Assembly (NCBI GenBank): GCA_964408775.1
Contig: CAYPAP010000002.1
Location: forward strand, 65,109-129,108
DNA from: an uncultured Gammaproteobacteria bacterium
GTDB lineage: Bacteria; Patescibacteriota; Patescibacteriia; Patescibacteriales; UBA12465
Reading direction: 5' to 3'
Length of the DNA: 64,000 nt
Shown here: one piece after another, positions 3 to 52,235 of the stretch
How positions within the stretch are numbered: position 1 is the first letter of the stretch
Layout of the letters: every line of letters starts with the position of its first letter
The notes under the pieces: generated by a model
What the model was told of the DNA's origin: nothing
Seen by the model: only the letters and a program-made list of their open reading frames with translations
The model's database searches: none
Made by a program: the position numbers and the translations under genes

Positions 3-1448
3 GATGGAATTAATAATGGTTCTTACGCCTTGTCTTTTTGTTTGGGTGGAGTTTCCGAGAATTTAACAGCTGGGCCCAAAATAGCCACTCCTGAGGCTTG
101 GTTTTCAACAGCTTCTTCGGGCCCAAGCGAGGAATTACTATCTATTTCTAAAAGTGGAACAGGAAGTGGTACTGTTAGCAGTTCTCCTTCCGGTATAGAT
201 TGTGGCTCAACTTGTTTTTATTCTTATGAACAAGATACTTCAGTAACACTATCGGCCAGTTCTTCTGTCGGTAGTACTTTTTCTGGTTGGTCGGGCGCTT
301 GTTCGGGTACTGGTTCTTGTGAAGTTTCTATGACCGAACCTAAGTCAGCAACAGCAAGCTTTACTATTAATAATTATGCCCTATCAGTGTCTAAGAGTGG
401 GGCAGGAAGTGGTACTGTTAGTAGTTCTCCTTCGGGTATAGATTGTGGTGCCAGTTGTTCTGGTGATTTTGACTATGGGACTTCGGTTACTCTAAGTGCC
501 GTCGCTCCAGTCGGTAGCGTTTTTACCGGATGGTCGGGCGAGGGTTGTTCAGGAACCGGAACCTGCGTTATTTCTGTCACCGAAGCTAAAAGTGTTAGCG
601 CTAATTTTGATATAAGTTATTGTAGTTTAGATATAAGTAATGTTGTTTTTGAAGATTTTTTTACAGGTTCCACTCTGGATACTGATAAATGGACAGAAAT
701 TGGTGCTAGCTTTGGGTCGATTTCTGTTGCTGATGGTTATTTAAATATAGTTAACCAAACTGGCGGAAGTAGCAGTTTTATAGGCGCGGCTACTAAAGAT
801 TTTAGATTACAAGTTGGTCAAATTATAGAAACAAGAGTAAAAAATACCTCTGGTAGGCATTCAGCAGTAATTGCCTTTGGTCAGGCTAATTGGTATCCCT
901 ATCCTCATGGAGGTAGTATCGGGGCTTCTTTGTATTCTAGGGCTGACGCTAAAACAGCTACAATATCTTTAAGGAGAGCTAATAATACAACAAGCTCAGG
1001 CTCTCCAACTATCCAGGATTATACTGATTTTAGAGTTTTAAAAATGTTTAGGTTAACCCAAGATCTAATCGAGTTTTATGCTGACGGAACAAAGGTTGGT
1101 CAATTTACCGATGCTGGATTATCGGCCGGTTACGCTGTTTATTATTCATACGATGGTCATACTAAACCAAATACCGCCGTAATAGATTATTTATTAGTTT
1201 TCTCTGAGGGGGGAACAGTTAGCCCTGTTGTCAGTGAAGATCGAGTTTGTGGAACAGAGGTAACTCTAACCGCTGCTCCTAGCACTGGCTATGTCTTTGT
1301 TTCTTGGACGGATGAAGGTGATAATGTTTTAAGTACTAATAATCCATATTCCTTTAATCTTTCAACTAATCAAACAATAAAAGCAAATTTTTCTGACACG
1401 AGCCCTCCTCCTCCGGATGATGATCCTCCAGGGCCACAACCAATTTAA
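3..1448 (+). CDS. secreted/surface protein with its 5' end outside the window: tandem InlB-B-repeat-like Cys modules, a concanavalin/LamG-like central domain and a Pro-rich tail
   Basis: The frame is open from the window edge, with no stop before the TTG at 30. Two ~80-aa repeats match SKSG.GSGTVSSSPSGIDCG..C...TSVTLSA...GS.F.GWSG.CSGTG.C...E.KS..A.F, and a third degenerate copy lies near the C-terminus (GTEVTLTAAPSTGYVFVSWTD). TAA at 1446-1448 is followed by a hairpin terminator. Confidence 0.8.
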   Translation, partial: DGINNGSYALSFCLGGVSENLTAGPKIATPEAWFSTASSGPSEELLSISKSGTGSGTVSSSPSGIDCGSTCFYSYEQDTSVTLSASSSVGSTFSGWSGACSGTGSCEVSMTEPKSATASFTINNYALSVSKSGAGSGTVSSSPSGIDCGASCSGDFDYGTSVTLSAVAPVGSVFTGWSGEGCSGTGTCVISVTEAKSVSANFDISYCSLDISNVVFEDFFTGSTLDTDKWTEIGASFGSISVADGYLNIVNQTGGSSSFIGAATKDFRLQVGQIIETRVKNTSGRHSAVIAFGQANWYPYPHGGSIGASLYSRADAKTATISLRRANNTTSSGSPTIQDYTDFRVLKMFRLTQDLIEFYADGTKVGQFTDAGLSAGYAVYYSYDGHTKPNTAVIDYLLVFSEGGTVSPVVSEDRVCGTEVTLTAAPSTGYVFVSWTDEGDNVLSTNNPYSFNLSTNQTIKANFSDTSPPPPDDDPPGPQPI

Positions 1449-11720: not shown

Positions 11721-11770
11721 CCTTCCGTGTCACCCCCGGCGAGCGTAGCGAGGGAAGGGGGTCCAGGGTT
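11721..11770. repeat. left inverted-repeat arm of the GIY-YIG cassette
   Basis: CCTTCCGTGTCACCCCCGGCGAGCGTAGCGAGGGAAGGGGGTCCAGGGTT. It pairs with 12122-12212. Confidence 0.85.
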
Positions 11771-11798
11771 GGTCCATATAAATAATAATACTTATAAA

Positions 11799-12050
11799 AT
11801 GACCAAAGAGTACAATTATTATATTTATATATTATCAAATAAAAGAAACGGAACATTATATATCGGAGTAACTAATAATTTACTCTCAAGGACATTCCAA
11901 CATAAATTAAAAGAAAATAAAAATAGCTTTAGCGCTAAATATAAAACAGACAAATTGGTTTATTATGAAAATTATCAATATATTGAAGACGCTTTAAATA
12001 GAGAGAAGGAGTTAAAAAAATGGAATAGATCTTGGAAAATAAAAAATTAA
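11799..12050 (+). CDS. small GIY-YIG nuclease (COG2827-like), apparently frameshifted; the conserved C-terminus continues in the -1 frame to 12100
   Basis: YIYILSNKRNGTLYIGVTNNLLSRTFQHK...KLVYYE...REKELKKWNRSWKI. The ATG at 11799 is preferred over the track start at 11718, which lies in the repeat arm. After the A6 run (12041-12046) the -1 frame reads KLIEEENPTWRDMFRDMD*, matching the family C-terminus as I recall it. Confidence 0.8.
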   Translation: MTKEYNYYIYILSNKRNGTLYIGVTNNLLSRTFQHKLKENKNSFSAKYKTDKLVYYENYQYIEDALNREKELKKWNRSWKIKN

Positions 12051-12121
12051 TAGAAGAAGAAAATCCTACTTGGAGGGATATGTTTAGGGATATGGATTAA
12101 TAACAAAAGATTTATCGAGTT

Positions 12122-12212
12122 AACCCTGGACCCCATTCCCTTCCCACGTAAAAACTCTCAGTTGCACTTCGTGCACCTTCGAGTTAACGTGGGTCGCCGG
12201 GGGTGACAAGGG
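12122..12212. repeat. right inverted-repeat arm of the GIY-YIG cassette with a nested hairpin
   Basis: AACCCTGGACCCC..CCCTTCCC, then the nested hairpin CCCACGT(12143-12149)...ACGTGGG(12187-12193) with an inner TGCAC-TTC-GTGCA, then TCGCCGGGGGTGAC. Confidence 0.85.
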
Positions 12213-12224
12213 AAAAATAAATTG

Positions 12225-12306
12225 TGCCGATGGTGGGAATCGAACCCACAAGCCTTGCGGCACACGAGTTTGAGTCGTGCGTGTTTGCCAGTTTCACCAC
12301 ATCGGC
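12225..12306 (-). tRNA. tRNA-Leu(CAA), class II with a long variable arm
   Basis: The reverse complement folds as a cloverleaf: acceptor GCCGATG/CATCGGC, anticodon stem CACGA/TCGTG with loop CTCAAAC (anticodon CAA), 13-nt variable arm, T arm GTGGG-TTCGATT-CCCAC, discriminator A. CCA is not encoded. Confidence 0.93.
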
Positions 12307-46241: not shown

Positions 46242-46706
46242 ATGAACGATCAAATCATGACCCAAGAGGGATATGACAAATTAAAAAATGAGTTAGATTA
46301 TTTAACTAAGGTTAAGCGCAAGGAGATTGCCGAGAGAATTGAGAGAGCTAAAGAGCTAGGAGATTTGAGCGAAAATGCTGAATATAGCGAGGCTAAGGAC
46401 GCACAAGCGCTAAATGAGGGCAGGGTTTTAGAATTAGCTGGCATCTTAAAAAATGTTACTGTGGTTAATAGTGTTAATGATAGCAGAAAAGGTGAGGTTG
46501 ATATGGGGTCTACAGTAAAAGTATTGGTTAATGGCAAGGAAAAGGAGTATATGTTGGTAAGTTTTAATGAAGCTGATCCGTTAAATGGTAAAATTTCCAA
46601 TGAATCACCCCTAGGTATGGCATTTTTGGGGAAGAAAAAAGGTGAGGAGGTATTAGTAGAAACTCCTAGAGGTGAGTTTAAATACAAGATTCTAGATGTA
46701 AAATAA
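46242..46706 (+). CDS. greA: transcription elongation factor GreA
   Basis: LTKVKRKEIAERIERAKELGDLSENAEYSEAKD and a C-terminal SNESPLGMAFLGKKKGEEV. Confidence 0.93.
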   Translation: MNDQIMTQEGYDKLKNELDYLTKVKRKEIAERIERAKELGDLSENAEYSEAKDAQALNEGRVLELAGILKNVTVVNSVNDSRKGEVDMGSTVKVLVNGKEKEYMLVSFNEADPLNGKISNESPLGMAFLGKKKGEEVLVETPRGEFKYKILDVK

Positions 46707-46745
46707 TTTTTATTAATAAAACTAAAAAATATTAAGAAAATTAAT

Positions 46746-47150
46746 ATGGATAATTGTATTTTTTGTAAAATTATTAATAAGGAAGTTGAATCTAATATTG
46801 TTTATGAAGATGCTAATGTCCTGGCCTTTTTGGATAATAATCCAATAAGTTTGGGGCATGTTTTAATTGTACCTAAAAAGCATTTTGTTAATGTTTATGA
46901 TATTGAAGAGGGTAGTTTGAAGGAAATAATAGTGGCAGCTAAAAAAATTGCTTTAACTTATAAAGAGGTTTTTGGGATTACTGACCTTAATCTATTACAT
47001 AATGCCGGCAGTAATGGTCAACAAGCTGTTTTTCATTTTCACCTTCATTTAATTCCGAGGAAAGAGGGTGATGATGTGGATTTTGATAATAAGAAATTTC
47101 CGGAATTGAAGGAGAGATATTCGGAGTTTATTGAGAAGTTGAAAGTTTAG
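46746..47150 (+). CDS. HIT-family nucleotide hydrolase
   Basis: CIFCKII and the histidine triad HFHLHLIP. Confidence 0.9.
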   Translation: MDNCIFCKIINKEVESNIVYEDANVLAFLDNNPISLGHVLIVPKKHFVNVYDIEEGSLKEIIVAAKKIALTYKEVFGITDLNLLHNAGSNGQQAVFHFHLHLIPRKEGDDVDFDNKKFPELKERYSEFIEKLKV

Positions 47151-47225
47151 AAATATACCGCCTTCCTCAAGGCTTCGGCGTATTACAAGTCGCCTGCGCT
47201 ACTTTGTAGCTACGGCGTGTTATAA

Positions 47226-47296
47226 TCGGGGATCGTCTAATGGTAGGACTGCAGGTTCTGGTCCTGTATATCTGGGTTCGAATCCTAGTCCCCGAG
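47226..47296 (+). tRNA. tRNA-Gln(CUG)
   Basis: Acceptor TCGGGGA/TCCCCGA (U1-A72), D arm GTCT-AATGGTA-GGAC, anticodon stem GCAGG/CCTGT with loop TTCTGGT (CTG), T arm CTGGG-TTCGAAT-CCTAG, discriminator G. No encoded CCA. Confidence 0.93.
47279..47296 (+). repeat. direct repeat copy 1 (the 3' end of tRNA-Gln)
   Basis: CGAATCCTAGTCCCCGAG, identical to 47482-47499. Confidence 0.95.
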
Positions 47297-47302
47297 CGAG
47301 TG

Positions 47303-47328
47303 AAAAAACACCCTTTGGGGTGTTTTTT
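47303..47328 (+). terminator. terminator after tRNA-Gln
   Basis: ACACCC-TTTG-GGGTGT followed by TTTTT. Confidence 0.75.
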
Positions 47329-47330
47329 GC

Positions 47331-47481
47331 GAGTGAGGGGAAGCGAAGTGCCTGCGCACTTCGCGCCTAGGATGAGAAAGCCGGAGCGATGTGTGAGCGT
47401 AGCGAGCACCGCGAGGCCAGGCCAGAGCGCTTAGTGAGCGTAGACTGCGTAGCAGTCAAGCGAGACTTAGCGACGTGTGGC
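47331..47481. other. GC-rich non-coding insert between the two tRNA-Gln 3'-end copies
   Basis: Hairpin GCGAAGTGC-CTGC-GCACTTCGC (47343-47364). 10-nt direct repeat GTGAGCGTAG (47393-47402 and 47434-47443). Recurrent GCGAG/GCGTAG words. The ORFs predicted here have no coding features. Confidence 0.7.
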
Positions 47482-47499
47482 CGAATCCTAGTCCCCGAG
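47482..47499 (+). repeat. direct repeat copy 2 (orphan tRNA-Gln 3' end)
   Basis: CGAATCCTAGTCCCCGAG. No matching T-stem or acceptor 5' strand lies upstream, so this is not a second tRNA. Confidence 0.95.
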
Positions 47500-47510
47500 C
47501 TACGATCAAG

Positions 47511-47535
47511 AACACCTGTAAACACAGGTGTTTTT
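47511..47535 (+). terminator. second terminator, after the orphan 3'-end copy
   Basis: CACCTGT-AAAC-ACAGGTG followed by TTTTT. Confidence 0.75.
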
Positions 47536-47597
47536 GTTTATATTTTAGCTCGAATCCTTGTTGAGGTATAGATTTAATTATGATATAATATAATTAT

Positions 47598-51602: not shown

Positions 51603-52235
51603 ATGAAAAAATTTAATCAGGGTCGTGATCGTGATTTTAGCGATAGGGGCCCTAAGAGAGGTTCAGGTGGTTTTGACCGAGGTTCTAGCCGACGACCAGA
51701 GAGAGGCGGCTTTGGGGGAGGGAACCGCAGTGGTTCTTCTGCCATGCATAAAGCAGTCTGTTTTGAATGTGGTAAAGATTGCGAGGTTCCTTTTAGACCG
51801 ACTGGAGGAAAGCCAGTTTTTTGCAGTATTTGCTTTGATAAAAAAGGCGGGTCAGAAAGCAGATCTAGAGGGGGATTTGACGGAAGACCAGAAAGAAGTT
51901 TTGAAAGAGATAACTCTTTCAAACCCAGATTTGATGATAAAAAATTTGGTGATAACAAAAAACCATTTAATGATGGTAAATTAGATGAGGTTATTTCTAA
52001 ATTAGATAAAATTATTAGATTACTTACTCCAGTAATTGACTTAAGAAAAGAAGATCCAGCAATAACAGAATCTAAGGTTGTTAACAAGAAATCTGAAGTA
52101 AGGGATATTAAGAAGGATAAGGTGGTAAAAAAGAGTTCAGCTAAAACCAAGGTTACCCCAAAGAAGAAAAGCAAAAAAGATAGTTTAACTAAAGCAACCC
52201 CTAAAACCAAGGCTAAAGCCAAGACAAAAAAGTAG
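51603..52235 (+). CDS. CxxC-x17-CxxC zinc-ribbon protein with an R/G-rich N-terminus and a Lys-rich C-terminus
   Basis: CFECGKDCEVPFRPTGGKPVFCSICF flanked by RGG-like and KKxK low-complexity regions. Confidence 0.7.
   Translation: MKKFNQGRDRDFSDRGPKRGSGGFDRGSSRRPERGGFGGGNRSGSSAMHKAVCFECGKDCEVPFRPTGGKPVFCSICFDKKGGSESRSRGGFDGRPERSFERDNSFKPRFDDKKFGDNKKPFNDGKLDEVISKLDKIIRLLTPVIDLRKEDPAITESKVVNKKSEVRDIKKDKVVKKSSAKTKVTPKKKSKKDSLTKATPKTKAKAKTKK

What the first reader, a model, noticed from the sequence alone, without database searches (positions are those of the whole stretch)
47226..47558. Perfect 18-bp duplication of the tRNA-Gln 3' end brackets a 0.2-kb GC-rich insert, and each copy has its own terminator
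Seen directly: the last 18 nt of tRNA-Gln(CUG), including the discriminator (CGAATCCTAGTCCCCGAG, 47279-47296), recur perfectly and in the same orientation at 47482-47499. Each copy is followed within about 6-12 nt by a similarly built hairpin plus T-run (47303-47328 and 47511-47535). Between them lie about 150 bp of GC-rich non-coding DNA with a 9-bp hairpin (47343-47364) and a 10-nt direct repeat GTGAGCGTAG (47393-47402, 47434-47443). A weaker third echo, TCGAATCCT, is at 47550-47558. Established knowledge: elements that integrate into tRNA 3' ends leave exactly this attL/attR-type duplication and supply a replacement 3' end. Inference: this insert is far too small to encode an integrase. It is therefore either the scar of a deleted island or a miniature non-autonomous element that targets tRNA 3' ends. 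The genes just downstream (deaminase, unknown protein, eukaryote-like nucleotidase, acidic protein) could be leftover cargo.
Basis: partly seen in the sequence, partly recalled or inferred. Interest (0 to 1): 0.7.

Follow-up and report, generated by a model that had tools for sequence, protein, structure and literature searches.

The report
tRNA-end-capped small RNA beside tRNA-Gln
The 0.2-kb GC-rich insert after tRNA-Gln is probably not a dead integration scar but a conserved, folded small RNA whose closing stems use a second copy of the tRNA's last 19 bases, the same layout as the poorly understood RtT RNA next to tRNA-Tyr in E. coli.

Summary
A perfect 19-nt direct repeat of the tRNA-Gln(CUG) 3' end (47279-47297 and 47482-47500) brackets a 62-67% GC insert in a 33% GC Patescibacteria genome, and each copy is followed by a hairpin plus T-run.

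Relatives are polymorphic. Five have an empty site. One relative (L086) and a 590-bp contig with no intact tRNA upstream (L118) carry the insert.

The three copies are not decaying scars:
- The P1-P4 core is 94% identical between window and L086, against 76-79% for neighbouring genes and 45-66% for flanks and the P5 hairpin.
- All copies fold the same way. The second tRNA-end copy forms the 3' strands of two closing helices (P1, P3), pairing with a segment at the insert's 5' end.
- Substitutions keep pairing (three compensatory, eight through G·U). The + strand folds about 10 kcal/mol better than the - strand.

E. coli RtT units share this architecture: the last 19 nt of tRNA-Tyr, a complementary 5' strand, and GGAUGAGAA. 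I found a further example after a Bacillota tRNA-Leu. No Rfam model, including RtT, matches.

Best reading: an RtT-like, tRNA-operon-encoded structured RNA, gained or lost by recombination at the repeat. Its function is unknown. The evidence rests on three sequences and no expression data.

The parts
47226..47297 (+). tRNA-Gln(CUG) gene. No CCA is encoded beyond the first C. The acceptor, D and T arms are invariant across the clade.
   Evidence: ARAGORN; Rfam tRNA 55.3 bits; comparison with relatives.
47279..47297 (+). Copy 1 of the 19-nt repeat CGAATCCTAGTCCCCGAGC. It covers the T-loop 3' part, the T-stem 3' strand, the acceptor 3' strand, the discriminator G and one C.
47303..47328 (+). Hairpin 1: A-run, CACCC/GGGTG stem, T-run, like a bidirectional intrinsic terminator. 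A hairpin sits at this position in all three copies of the element. Its sequence is nearly the same in L118 and different in L086, but the form is kept.
47329..47503 (+). The structured element as modelled (covariance model R1, 175 positions, 211 bits). It has five helices, P1-P5.
   Evidence: folds
47333..47341 (+). P1 5' strand, GUGAGGGGA. It pairs with UCCCCGAGC (47492-47500): five G-C/A-U pairs, a tandem G·A, a U·G and a G-C.
47343..47364 (+). P2 hairpin, GCGAAGUGC-CUGC-GCACUUCGC (9 bp). The loop-closing C-G becomes U·G in L086.
   Evidence: (I14)
47367..47376 (+). P3 5' strand, CUAGGAU followed by GAG, complementary to AUCCUAG of copy 2. GGAUGAGAA is shared with the E. coli RtT consensus. 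In L118 the GA becomes UC, together with an A-to-G change in copy 2.
   Evidence: (I8)
47380..47417 (+). P4 hairpin. This is the most conserved core: 34 nt are identical to L086. It contains GUGU-GA-GC-GUA-GC-GA-GCAC with tandem G·A.
47420..47482 (+). P5 long hairpin. The base has compensatory changes (C-G to U-A, A-U to G-C). The tip differs completely among the three copies.
47482..47500 (+). Copy 2 of the 19-nt repeat. It forms the 3' strands of P3 and P1 and is the predicted 3' end of the RNA.
47507..47536 (+). Hairpin 2 plus T-run. This is the predicted intrinsic terminator of the element and of the operon.
   Evidence: (I4)
47539..47561 (+). Third, degenerate echo of the T-arm region (18/23). 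It lies just upstream of a predicted promoter (47561-47589) for the deaminase gene. Its status is uncertain.
   Evidence: (D2)

Best explanation
The insert is a gene for a structured RNA of about 170 nt on the same strand as tRNA-Gln. I call it RtT-like.

**Architecture (predicted from folds and comparison).** The 5' end carries a segment complementary to the tRNA-Gln 3' end: GGGGA, then CUAGGAU, with hairpin P2 inserted between them. The 3' end is a second copy of the last 19 nt of the tRNA. These pair as helices P1 and P3 and close a junction that bears two GC-rich hairpins, P4 (the conserved core) and P5 (variable tip). The continuous 3' strand of P3 plus P1 imitates the coaxial T-stem/acceptor-stem half of a tRNA.

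**How it is made (inferred).** The RNA is transcribed from the HIT/tRNA-Gln transcription unit by read-through of hairpin 1. Its 3' end is then defined at the discriminator by the same enzymes that mature tRNA-Gln (RNase Z or exonucleases, possibly with CCA addition). This parallels E. coli RtT, which ends at the CCA of its tRNA-Tyr-derived 19-mer. Hairpin 2 terminates transcription.

**Function.** Unknown. By analogy it is most plausibly a regulatory or decoy RNA linked to tRNA metabolism.

**Patchy distribution (inferred).** The two 19-nt direct repeats, and homologous exchange anchored in the conserved tRNA, allow clean loss and allelic replacement.
For: 1. **Conservation pattern, window versus L086.** The P1-P4 core is 94% identical (82/87). 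The HIT and GreA genes are 79% and 76% identical at the nucleotide level. The hairpin-1 region is 66%, P5 is 57%, and the sequence after copy 2 is 45%. This indicates a long separation with selection on the core, not a recent transfer.
2. **Same fold in all copies.** The three independent copies (window, L086, L118) fold on their own into the same five-helix structure, with z = -4.8 and -3.8. The consensus has 49 pairs and 98.6% of cells paired, against 31-45% when partners are slid by 1-3 columns. There are 3 compensatory pairs, and all 8 one-sided changes keep pairing.
3. **Strand.** The + strand folds 10-12 kcal/mol better than the - strand in every copy, and the alignment consensus gives -60.6 against -50.5. 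G·U pairs number 2, 6 and 3 in the three copies, against 0, 0 and 1 A·C mismatches.
4. **Copy 2 follows the structure, not the tRNA.** In L118 copy 2 departs from the tRNA (CGAAUCC to CGGAUCC) and the opposite strand changes GA to UC, turning a tandem G·A into U·G plus C-G.
5. **Independence from the tRNA.** L118 keeps an intact element although no intact tRNA lies upstream.
6. **E. coli parallel.** RtT units end with the last 19 nt of tRNA-Tyr at 178-nt spacing. The Rfam RtT consensus is closed by GgGaaGG-U pairing with A-UCCuuCcC, followed by GAUGAGAA. A covariation-supported tandem GA motif in RtT is reported in PMC7657543.
7. **Third independent case.** A Bacillota MAG (L008) has the same layout after tRNA-Leu: an inverted copy of the tRNA 3' region, GC-rich hairpins, then a 20-nt copy of the tRNA 3' end including CCA.
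8. **Not protein-coding.** Stop codons fall at different places in every frame between copies.
Against: - Only three distinct sequences are available.
- P1-P4 are almost invariant, so they give no covariation signal. The shuffle control is only marginal (19/500).
- There are no expression data.
- A terminator-like hairpin lies between the tRNA and the element, and no promoter for the element was found. Transcription therefore depends on read-through, which is untested.
- Neither Rfam RtT (RF00391) nor any other family matches at E <= 10. My model R1 does not detect E. coli RtT or the L008 element. Homology to RtT is therefore unsupported and the resemblance may be convergent.
- The element is absent from five of the seven relatives in which the sequence after tRNA-Gln could be read, so it is dispensable.
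- The MFE of the L008 element and of RtT itself is not better than shuffles (z about -1).
Confidence: 0.55

Rival explanations
1. Miniature non-autonomous integrative element, or the attL/attR scar of a deleted island. A site-specific recombinase encoded elsewhere recombines the 19-bp core in the tRNA-Gln 3' end. The GC-rich DNA is an attP-arm remnant.
For: - Direct repeats of the tRNA 3' end flank the insert.
- Clean empty sites exist in relatives.
- The trailer after copy 2 (GAGC-UA...UGUUUUUGUUUAU) resembles the trailer of the outgroup's empty site, L093 (GAGC-UA...UGUUUUUAUUAU). This would fit copy 2 being the original tRNA end.
- The gene content downstream of the tRNA is variable.
- tRNA-Gln alleles are incongruent with the HIT tree.
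- One copy lies at a site lacking an intact tRNA (L118).
Against: - No integrase lies in or next to the insert.
- The insert starts with an inverted copy of the core that pairs with copy 2. An att model does not predict this.
- Compensatory and G·U-preserving changes, and the strand asymmetry, point to selection on an RNA.
- The unconstrained parts of the window and L086 copies have diverged as much as neutral DNA, so there has been no recent mobility.
- No second copy occurs in the 64-kb window or in phage, plasmid or viral collections.
Confidence: 0.17
2. Cis-acting switch on tRNA-Gln maturation or termination. The anti-tRNA segment (47337-47373) can pair either with the genuine tRNA 3' end (copy 1) or with the decoy (copy 2). 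The element would then control how much mature tRNA-Gln, or read-through, the operon yields, rather than acting as a free RNA.
For: - The MFE of the whole 315-nt transcript pairs the anti-segment with copy 1, and the tRNA 5' half with copy 2. The two conformations are therefore nearly isoenergetic.
- Rfam files RtT as 'Cis-reg'.
- A preprint describes RtT as involved in processing of the adjacent tyrT (10.1101/2024.07.17.603846).
- Hairpin 1 is retained between the two partners in all three copies.
Against: - L118 keeps the element without an intact upstream tRNA.
- The tRNA would fold co-transcriptionally before the anti-segment is made.
- No ligand- or factor-binding feature has been identified.
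Confidence: 0.15
3. Functionless relic. A tandem partial duplication of the tRNA-Gln 3' end plus terminator, with GC-rich filler in between, is drifting toward loss.
For: - The two terminators share AACACC...GGTGTTTTT, so the duplication may extend beyond the 19-mer (I13, 81).
- The element is dispensable in most relatives.
Against: - The core is more conserved than neighbouring coding genes, whereas the flanks are at 45-66%.
- Copy 2 is intact in lineages whose intergenic DNA is otherwise unalignable.
- The fold is kept in three copies.
Confidence: 0.06
4. MITE-like transposable element. Its terminal inverted repeats happen to derive from a tRNA 3' end and are mobilised by a transposase in trans.
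For: - The ends are inverted repeats (GGGGA...CUAGGAU and AUCCUAGUCCCC).
- The distribution is patchy and one copy sits in another context (L118).
- A GIY-YIG cassette with GC-rich inverted repeats lies beside tRNA-Leu in the same window and shares the 12-mer GAGCGTAGCGAG.
Against: - There is no target-site duplication apart from the tRNA end itself.
- It is single-copy in the 64 kb.
- The left 'TIR' is interrupted by a conserved hairpin.
- Strand-specific G·U pairs are not expected for a double-stranded TIR.
Confidence: 0.05

Closest known systems
RtT RNA (rttR; Rfam RF00391) of the E. coli/Enterobacterales tyrT-tyrV operon
   Same: - It lies directly downstream of a tRNA gene on the same strand.
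- Each unit ends with a copy of the last 19 nt of that tRNA (AAUCCUUCCCCCACCACCA, spacing 178 nt; here the 19 nt repeat at 203 nt spacing).
- A 5' segment complementary to the tRNA-derived 3' end forms the closing helix and is followed by GAUGAGAA.
- The interior has two GC-rich hairpins and tandem G·A motifs.
- The annotated E. coli RNA ends exactly at the tRNA-like 3' end.
- Copy number and presence vary among strains.

Sources; PMC3318445; PMC7657543.
   Different: - There is no detectable sequence or covariance-model similarity in either direction.
- The tRNA differs (Gln, not Tyr) and the phylum differs (Patescibacteria).
- The closing helix here is split by an extra hairpin (P2) and extends over the discriminator.
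- A terminator-like hairpin separates the tRNA from the element.
- CCA is not encoded.
- The window has a single unit, not a tandem array.
- There is no tpr-like ORF.
attL/attR duplications left by integrases that target tRNA 3' ends (genomic islands, prophages)
   Same: A direct repeat of the tRNA 3' end brackets foreign-looking DNA, the tRNA stays intact, and empty sites exist in relatives.
   Different: - The insert is 184 bp with no recombinase.
- The insert contains an inverted copy of the repeat.
- It shows RNA-type conservation.
tRNA-like 3' modules that recruit tRNA-processing enzymes (mascRNA at the MALAT1 3' end, the tmRNA tRNA-like domain, viral TLS)
   Same: An acceptor/T-arm-like coaxial helix at the end of a larger RNA could define the 3' end through RNase P, RNase Z or CCA addition.
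   Different: - There is no local T-arm or D-arm equivalent.
- ARAGORN and the Rfam tRNA and tmRNA models do not recognise it.
- The discriminator is predicted to be paired.
Unnamed element after tRNA-Leu in a Bacillota MAG (L008, WRCD01000005.1; found here)
   Same: It has the same layout in 121 nt: GGAGGACUUGAA (the reverse complement of the T-loop, T-stem and acceptor strand), two GC-rich hairpins, then a 20-nt copy of the tRNA 3' end with CCA. It sits inside a tRNA operon.
   Different: It shows no sequence similarity to the window element, is shorter, and has no intervening terminator. Its conservation was not examined.

Membership tests
RtT RNA (Rfam RF00391) | Lies immediately downstream of, and co-oriented with, a tRNA gene | tested here: met
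   The tRNA-Gln gene ends at 47297 and the element occupies 47329-47503 (+). The E. coli reference locus is.
RtT RNA (Rfam RF00391) | The unit ends with a copy of about the last 19 nt of the upstream tRNA | tested here: met
   19/19 identity at 47482-47500. The E. coli units carry a 19-nt copy at 178-nt spacing.
RtT RNA (Rfam RF00391) | Closing helix between a 5' segment and the tRNA-derived 3' segment | tested here: met
   P1 and P3 are predicted independently in three copies. This is prediction only.
RtT RNA (Rfam RF00391) | Scores at or above the family's covariance-model threshold (45 bits) | tested here: not met
   There is no RtT hit even at E <= 10 on 551-nt and 181-nt stretches. The reverse search with R1 is not significant.
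RtT RNA (Rfam RF00391) | Tandem amplification of units | tested here: not met
   The window and L086 each have one unit. L118 has a degenerate 3'-end-like relic upstream plus one unit.
RtT RNA (Rfam RF00391) | A discrete RNA released from the tRNA operon transcript by processing | not testable with these tools
   No transcript data are available.
tRNA-targeting integrative element (attL/attR) | Direct repeat of the tRNA 3' end flanks the insert, and empty sites exist in relatives | tested here: met
tRNA-targeting integrative element (attL/attR) | An integrase/recombinase is encoded in or beside the insert | tested here: not met
   The 184-bp insert has no conserved ORF. The neighbours are HIT, deaminase, an unknown protein, UMPH-1, a second protein with no Pfam family, and DUF389. 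The rest of the genome was not examined.
tRNA-targeting integrative element (attL/attR) | The same element is found integrated at other sites or genomes with near-identical sequence (recent mobility) | tested here: inconclusive
   L118 is in another context. However, the copies are anciently diverged in their unconstrained parts, and none is found in the viral, phage or plasmid sets. The metagenome scan was uninformative.
MITE | Terminal inverted repeats plus a target-site duplication plus many copies per genome | tested here: not met
   The ends are complementary, but there is no TSD other than the tRNA end. There is one copy in 64 kb.
Group I intron in a Patescibacteria tRNA gene | Match to the group I intron model, interrupting the tRNA (35/36 or another anticodon-loop site) | tested here: not met
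   The tRNA is uninterrupted. There is no Intron_gpI hit at E <= 10. The known sites are given in PMC13011429.
tRNA / tmRNA | Recognised by ARAGORN or by the Rfam tRNA or tmRNA models | tested here: not met
   Only 47226-47297 is called as a tRNA. Nothing is called in 47298-47560.

The most novel reading that the evidence does not exclude
The element, E. coli RtT and the Bacillota tRNA-Leu-linked element would belong to one widespread, unrecognised class: tRNA-3'-end-capped RNAs that arise repeatedly beside tRNA genes in distant phyla. These RNAs would borrow the tRNA's own 3' strand to build a minihelix that tRNA-maturation enzymes trim, and perhaps CCA-tag. They would act as decoys or sensors for factors that read tRNA 3' ends, such as the stringent-response machinery, the CCA-adding enzyme, or acceptor-end toxins.
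Probability: 0.2. Interest if true: 0.75.

Novelty: new variant of a known kind. Interest (0 to 1): 0.5.

Why it matters
RtT has been known since the 1978-1991 studies of the tyrT locus, yet it still has no established function and is catalogued only in Enterobacterales. An element with the same architecture, built on a different tRNA in a minimal-genome Patescibacterium, changes that picture. Together with a third case in Bacillota found in only about 1 Mb of unrelated DNA, it suggests the layout is a recurrent solution and not an E. coli oddity. The layout is a tRNA 3'-end copy, an internal complement and GC-rich hairpins.

This gives comparative leverage on what RtT-type RNAs do. It also has a practical consequence for annotation: short duplications of tRNA 3' ends should not automatically be read as integration scars. 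Even so, the finding remains a prediction from three sequences.

Tried and rejected
- **Rfam.** I ran gathering and E <= 10 scans of the window, L086, L008 and the isolated element. Only the tRNAs and RNase P scored. Weak hits to SpF41, RNAI and sR24 are terminator or GAUGA look-alikes.
- **Genome-collection scan with the HIT protein.** The species and its genus are not represented. The best match was 57% (Ca. Microsyncoccus), where tRNA-Gln lies elsewhere with no insert.
- **Metagenome scan with a 20-mer of the core.** All seven hits were chance or unrelated matches in 45-72% GC contigs. That collection does not even hold the JGI contig L003 that carries the element, so the negative result means little.
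- **Viral-contig scans with four patterns.** These returned only chance 16-mers, two phage tRNA-Gln genes without an insert, and one viral contig (L109) sharing just the GUGCGAGCGUAGCGAGCAC hairpin.
- **Phage and plasmid BLAST.** No match.
- **Composite six-frame 'spurious ORF' protein search.** This produced one new copy (P0121, L118). It suggests few further copies have been called as ORFs.
- **Group I intron, tmRNA, second tRNA and protein-coding readings.** All rejected.
- **Homology of the downstream 287-aa protein with L086's 285-aa protein.** Rejected.
- **Kink-turn or C/D-box reading of GGAUGAGA.** I considered it after the sR24 hit, but dropped it because there is no 3-nt bulge.
Full report
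**1. The observation**

The window is a 33% GC genome fragment. It carries RNase P RNA, tRNA-Leu(CAA) and tRNA-Gln(CUG) at 47226-47297. The last 19 nt of the tRNA-Gln gene, CGAATCCTAGTCCCCGAGC, recur perfectly at 47482-47500, 203 nt downstream on the same strand. Within the 64 kb this is the only significant self-match of the region.

Hairpin 1 (47303-47328) and hairpin 2 (47507-47536) follow the two copies. The 9-bp hairpin at 47343-47364 and the GTGAGCGTAG repeat are also present. The insert reaches 65-67% GC. The third echo (47539-47561) matches the tRNA in 18 of 23 positions.

**2. Who carries it**

The organism is a Patescibacterium. The best species-representative match to the adjacent HIT protein is 57%, in Ca. 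Microsyncoccus. Near-identical strains from three other samples have an identical locus.

I fetched the loci of HIT homologues of 61-86% identity to obtain relatives. The TraX-GreA-(Asn/Asp-tRNA synthetase)-HIT-tRNA-Gln synteny is conserved.

| State at the tRNA-Gln site | Loci (HIT % identity to window) |
|---|---|
| Empty: tRNA followed directly by a terminator or promoter | L092 (86), L088 (83), L116 (74), L093 and L094 (61) |
| Occupied by the same insert | L086 (77) |
| Uninformative: the contig ends inside the tRNA or within 3 nt of its end | L087, L095, L117 |

Empty is therefore the ancestral state, and the distribution does not follow the HIT or GreA identity matrix.

A composite protein query made from the open frames of the conserved core found one spurious ORF. 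This led to a third copy on a 590-bp contig, L118. There the element is preceded by a degenerate 3'-end-like sequence and a hairpin almost identical to the window's hairpin 1, not by an intact tRNA.

**3. It is under selection as a folded single strand**

Identity between the window and L086:

| Segment | Identity |
|---|---|
| P1-P4 part of the insert | 94% (82/87, including a 34-nt identical stretch) |
| HIT gene (nucleotide) | 79% |
| GreA gene (nucleotide) | 76% |
| Hairpin-1 region | 66% |
| P5 | 57% |
| DNA after copy 2 | 45% |

A recent transfer would have kept the flanks and the P5 tip alike. Neutral decay would have eroded the core and copy 2.

Each copy on its own folds into the same structure (consensus):
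- **P1:** GUGAGGGGA pairs with UCCCCGAGC.
- **P2:** a 9-bp hairpin.
- **P3:** CUAGGAU(GAG) pairs with (C GA)AUCCUAG.
- **P4:** a hairpin with tandem G·A.
- **P5:** a long hairpin whose tip is different in all three copies.

The second copy of the tRNA end thus supplies the continuous 3' strand of P3 plus P1. The start of the insert is, in effect, an inverted copy of the tRNA 3' region with P2 inserted into it (I8).

On the three-sequence alignment, 98.6% of cells pair, against 31-45% for slid registers. Three pairs change on both sides, and all eight one-sided changes keep a pair through G·U. In L118, copy 2 departs from the tRNA (A to G) while the facing GA becomes UC, replacing a tandem G·A with U·G and C-G. 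So copy 2 tracks the helix, not the tRNA.

The + strand is favoured in every copy by 10-12 kcal/mol. G·U pairs outnumber A·C mismatches 11 to 1. No reading frame is conserved.

There are limits. The sample is three sequences, P1-P4 are nearly invariant, and the shuffle control reaches the observed value in 19 of 500 trials.

**4. What it resembles**

No Rfam family matches. The layout, however, is that of E. coli RtT. I fetched the tyrT-tyrV locus. The units downstream of tRNA-Tyr each end with AATCCTTCCCCCACCACCA, the last 19 nt of the tRNA, at 178-nt spacing. The annotated 171-nt rttR ends at that CCA.

The Rfam RtT consensus is closed by GgGaaGG-U pairing with A-UCCuuCcC, followed by GAUGAGAA and two internal hairpins. 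The window element has GGGGA...CUAGGAUGAGAAAGCC. A tandem GA motif in RtT has covariation support (PMC7657543). rttR is described as one repeat unit of the tyrT operon and is absent from some strains (PMC3318445).

The similarity is architectural only. RF00391 does not score the window element, and my model R1 does not score RtT.

Among the 30 tRNAs in about 1 Mb of loci fetched for other reasons, I looked for copies of the last 16 nt of each tRNA within 600 nt upstream or downstream (at most one mismatch). This found one more independent case. In a Bacillota MAG (L008), tRNA-Leu is followed by a 121-nt GC-rich segment. That segment starts with the reverse complement of the tRNA's T-loop, T-stem and acceptor strand. 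It ends with a 20-nt copy of the tRNA 3' end including CCA. It has no Rfam match.

**5. How it probably works**

Shown:
- the anatomy;
- its conservation;
- the strand;
- the presence/absence polymorphism.

Inferred:
- The RNA is made by read-through from the HIT/tRNA-Gln unit. No promoter was found between hairpin 1 and the element.
- Its tRNA-like 3' end is trimmed like tRNA-Gln, and possibly given CCA.
- Hairpin 2 terminates transcription.

The function is unknown. The whole-transcript fold shows that the anti-tRNA segment can pair equally well with the genuine tRNA end, so a cis-acting switch on tRNA-Gln maturation is a live variant. However, L118 argues that the element can stand without an intact tRNA.

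Loss can occur by recombination between the 19-mers. L116 looks like a junction between the 5' arm of hairpin 1 and the 3' arm plus downstream sequence of hairpin 2, possibly through the shared AACACC.

The anticodon-stem alleles of tRNA-Gln are distributed incongruently with the HIT tree. L092 and L117 have 92% identical HIT but different anticodon stems, whereas L088 and L093 have 59% identical HIT and the same stem. This points to homologous exchange anchored in the invariant parts of the tRNA. That exchange alone could spread or remove the element.

**6. Rivals**

- **Integrase scar or mini-element.** This keeps some weight: empty sites exist, the trailer after copy 2 resembles the outgroup's, the downstream genes vary, and L118 is in another context. 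It does not explain the internal inverted copy, the strand-specific conservation, or the ancient divergence of the copies. No recombinase is nearby.
- **Pure relic.** Contradicted.
- **MITE.** Contradicted by the single copy and the absence of a TSD.
- **Group I intron.** These are frequent in Patescibacteria tRNAs but sit at anticodon-loop positions (PMC13011429). This reading is excluded.

**7. Verdict**

The feature is real and non-random. The 'scar' and 'cargo' parts are not supported.

The best reading is a new, phylogenetically remote variant of the RtT type of tRNA-linked structured RNA. I hold this with moderate confidence, because it rests on three sequences and no transcript data.

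Noticed in passing
window 11725-12211 (GIY-YIG ORF 11799-12050 +; tRNA-Leu 12224-12306 -): A small GIY-YIG nuclease gene (Pfam E = 5e-16) is enclosed by two nested GC-rich inverted repeats: 11725-11742 with 12194-12211, and 11744-11770 with 12122-12148. It abuts the 3' end of tRNA-Leu(CAA). It shares the 12-mer GAGCGTAGCGAG (11741-11752) with the P4 core of the tRNA-Gln element. It looks like a mobile or structured cassette at a second tRNA 3' end.
   Followed up: partly
L008 857-977 (-), beside tRNA-Leu 978-1060 (-) (Bacillota MAG WRCD01000005.1): A 121-nt GC-rich element sits inside a tRNA operon. It begins with the reverse complement of the tRNA-Leu T-loop, T-stem and acceptor strand. It ends with a 20-nt copy of the tRNA 3' end including CCA. 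The architecture is the same as the window element and RtT, and there is no Rfam match.
   Followed up: partly
window 47151-47225; L092 1836-1857; L088 3016-3705: The HIT-tRNA-Gln junction is also variable. The tRNA abuts or overlaps the HIT stop codon in L086, L093 and L116. The window has a 75-nt GC-rich hairpin-forming spacer, L092 and L117 have a different GC-rich hairpin, and L088 has a 229-aa LAGLIDADG endonuclease ORF that runs into the tRNA.
   Followed up: partly
tRNA-Gln genes of window, L086, L087, L088, L092, L093, L095, L116, L117: Three anticodon-stem alleles of tRNA-Gln (all with compensated pairs) are distributed incongruently with HIT and GreA identity. L092 and L117 have 92% identical HIT but different alleles. 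L088 and L093 have 59% identical HIT and the same allele. This suggests recombination within or around the tRNA.
   Followed up: partly
window 46242-47150 versus L086, L087, L088, L093, L095: All relatives have a 486-aa class II (Asn/Asp-type) tRNA synthetase gene between GreA and HIT. In the window, GreA (46242-46706) is followed directly by HIT (46746-47150), so the synthetase is missing from this locus.
   Followed up: no
ends of L087 (4549), L095 (3456), L117 (904), L002 (3514); start of L005: Several assemblies of relatives break inside the tRNA-Gln gene or within 3 nt of its 3' end. L005 starts exactly 31 nt before the end of copy 2. This fits graph branching from occupied/empty heterogeneity in the sampled populations, or poor coverage of the GC-rich insert.
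   Followed up: no
L086 4728-4870: After the element's terminator, L086 has a further GC-rich stretch of about 140 nt. Its hairpins include CACGUGGCGUAGCCGCGUGG, with the same GCGUAGC loop motif seen in P4 and P5. It is absent from the window.
   Followed up: no
L109 130-345 (IMG/VR contig 3300012282_000267, 38% GC): An AT-rich viral contig has a GC-rich structured intergenic region that contains GUGCGAGCGUAGCGAGCAC. This is the same hairpin module as the P4 core (R1 local hit, 18.5 bits, E = 0.03). It may be a recurrent stable hairpin motif with a GNA-type triloop and tandem G·A.
   Followed up: no
window 51603-52235 (+): A GC-rich island (up to 61% GC) lies inside a 210-aa ORF. The ORF encodes Arg/Gly-rich repeats around a CxxC...CxxC zinc-ribbon-like motif (…AVCFECGKDCEVPFRPTGGKPVFCSICFDKKGG…). 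This is coding sequence, not an RNA element.
   Followed up: no
L096, L097, L099 (high-GC soil metagenome contigs): The 20-mer of the P4 core also occurs inside a repeated motif, GTCATGTTGAGCGTAGCGAGCACCGCGAGCG(C/A)AGTCGAA, on unrelated 59-66% GC contigs. This is probably a REP-like repeat family, and the match is probably coincidental.
   Followed up: no
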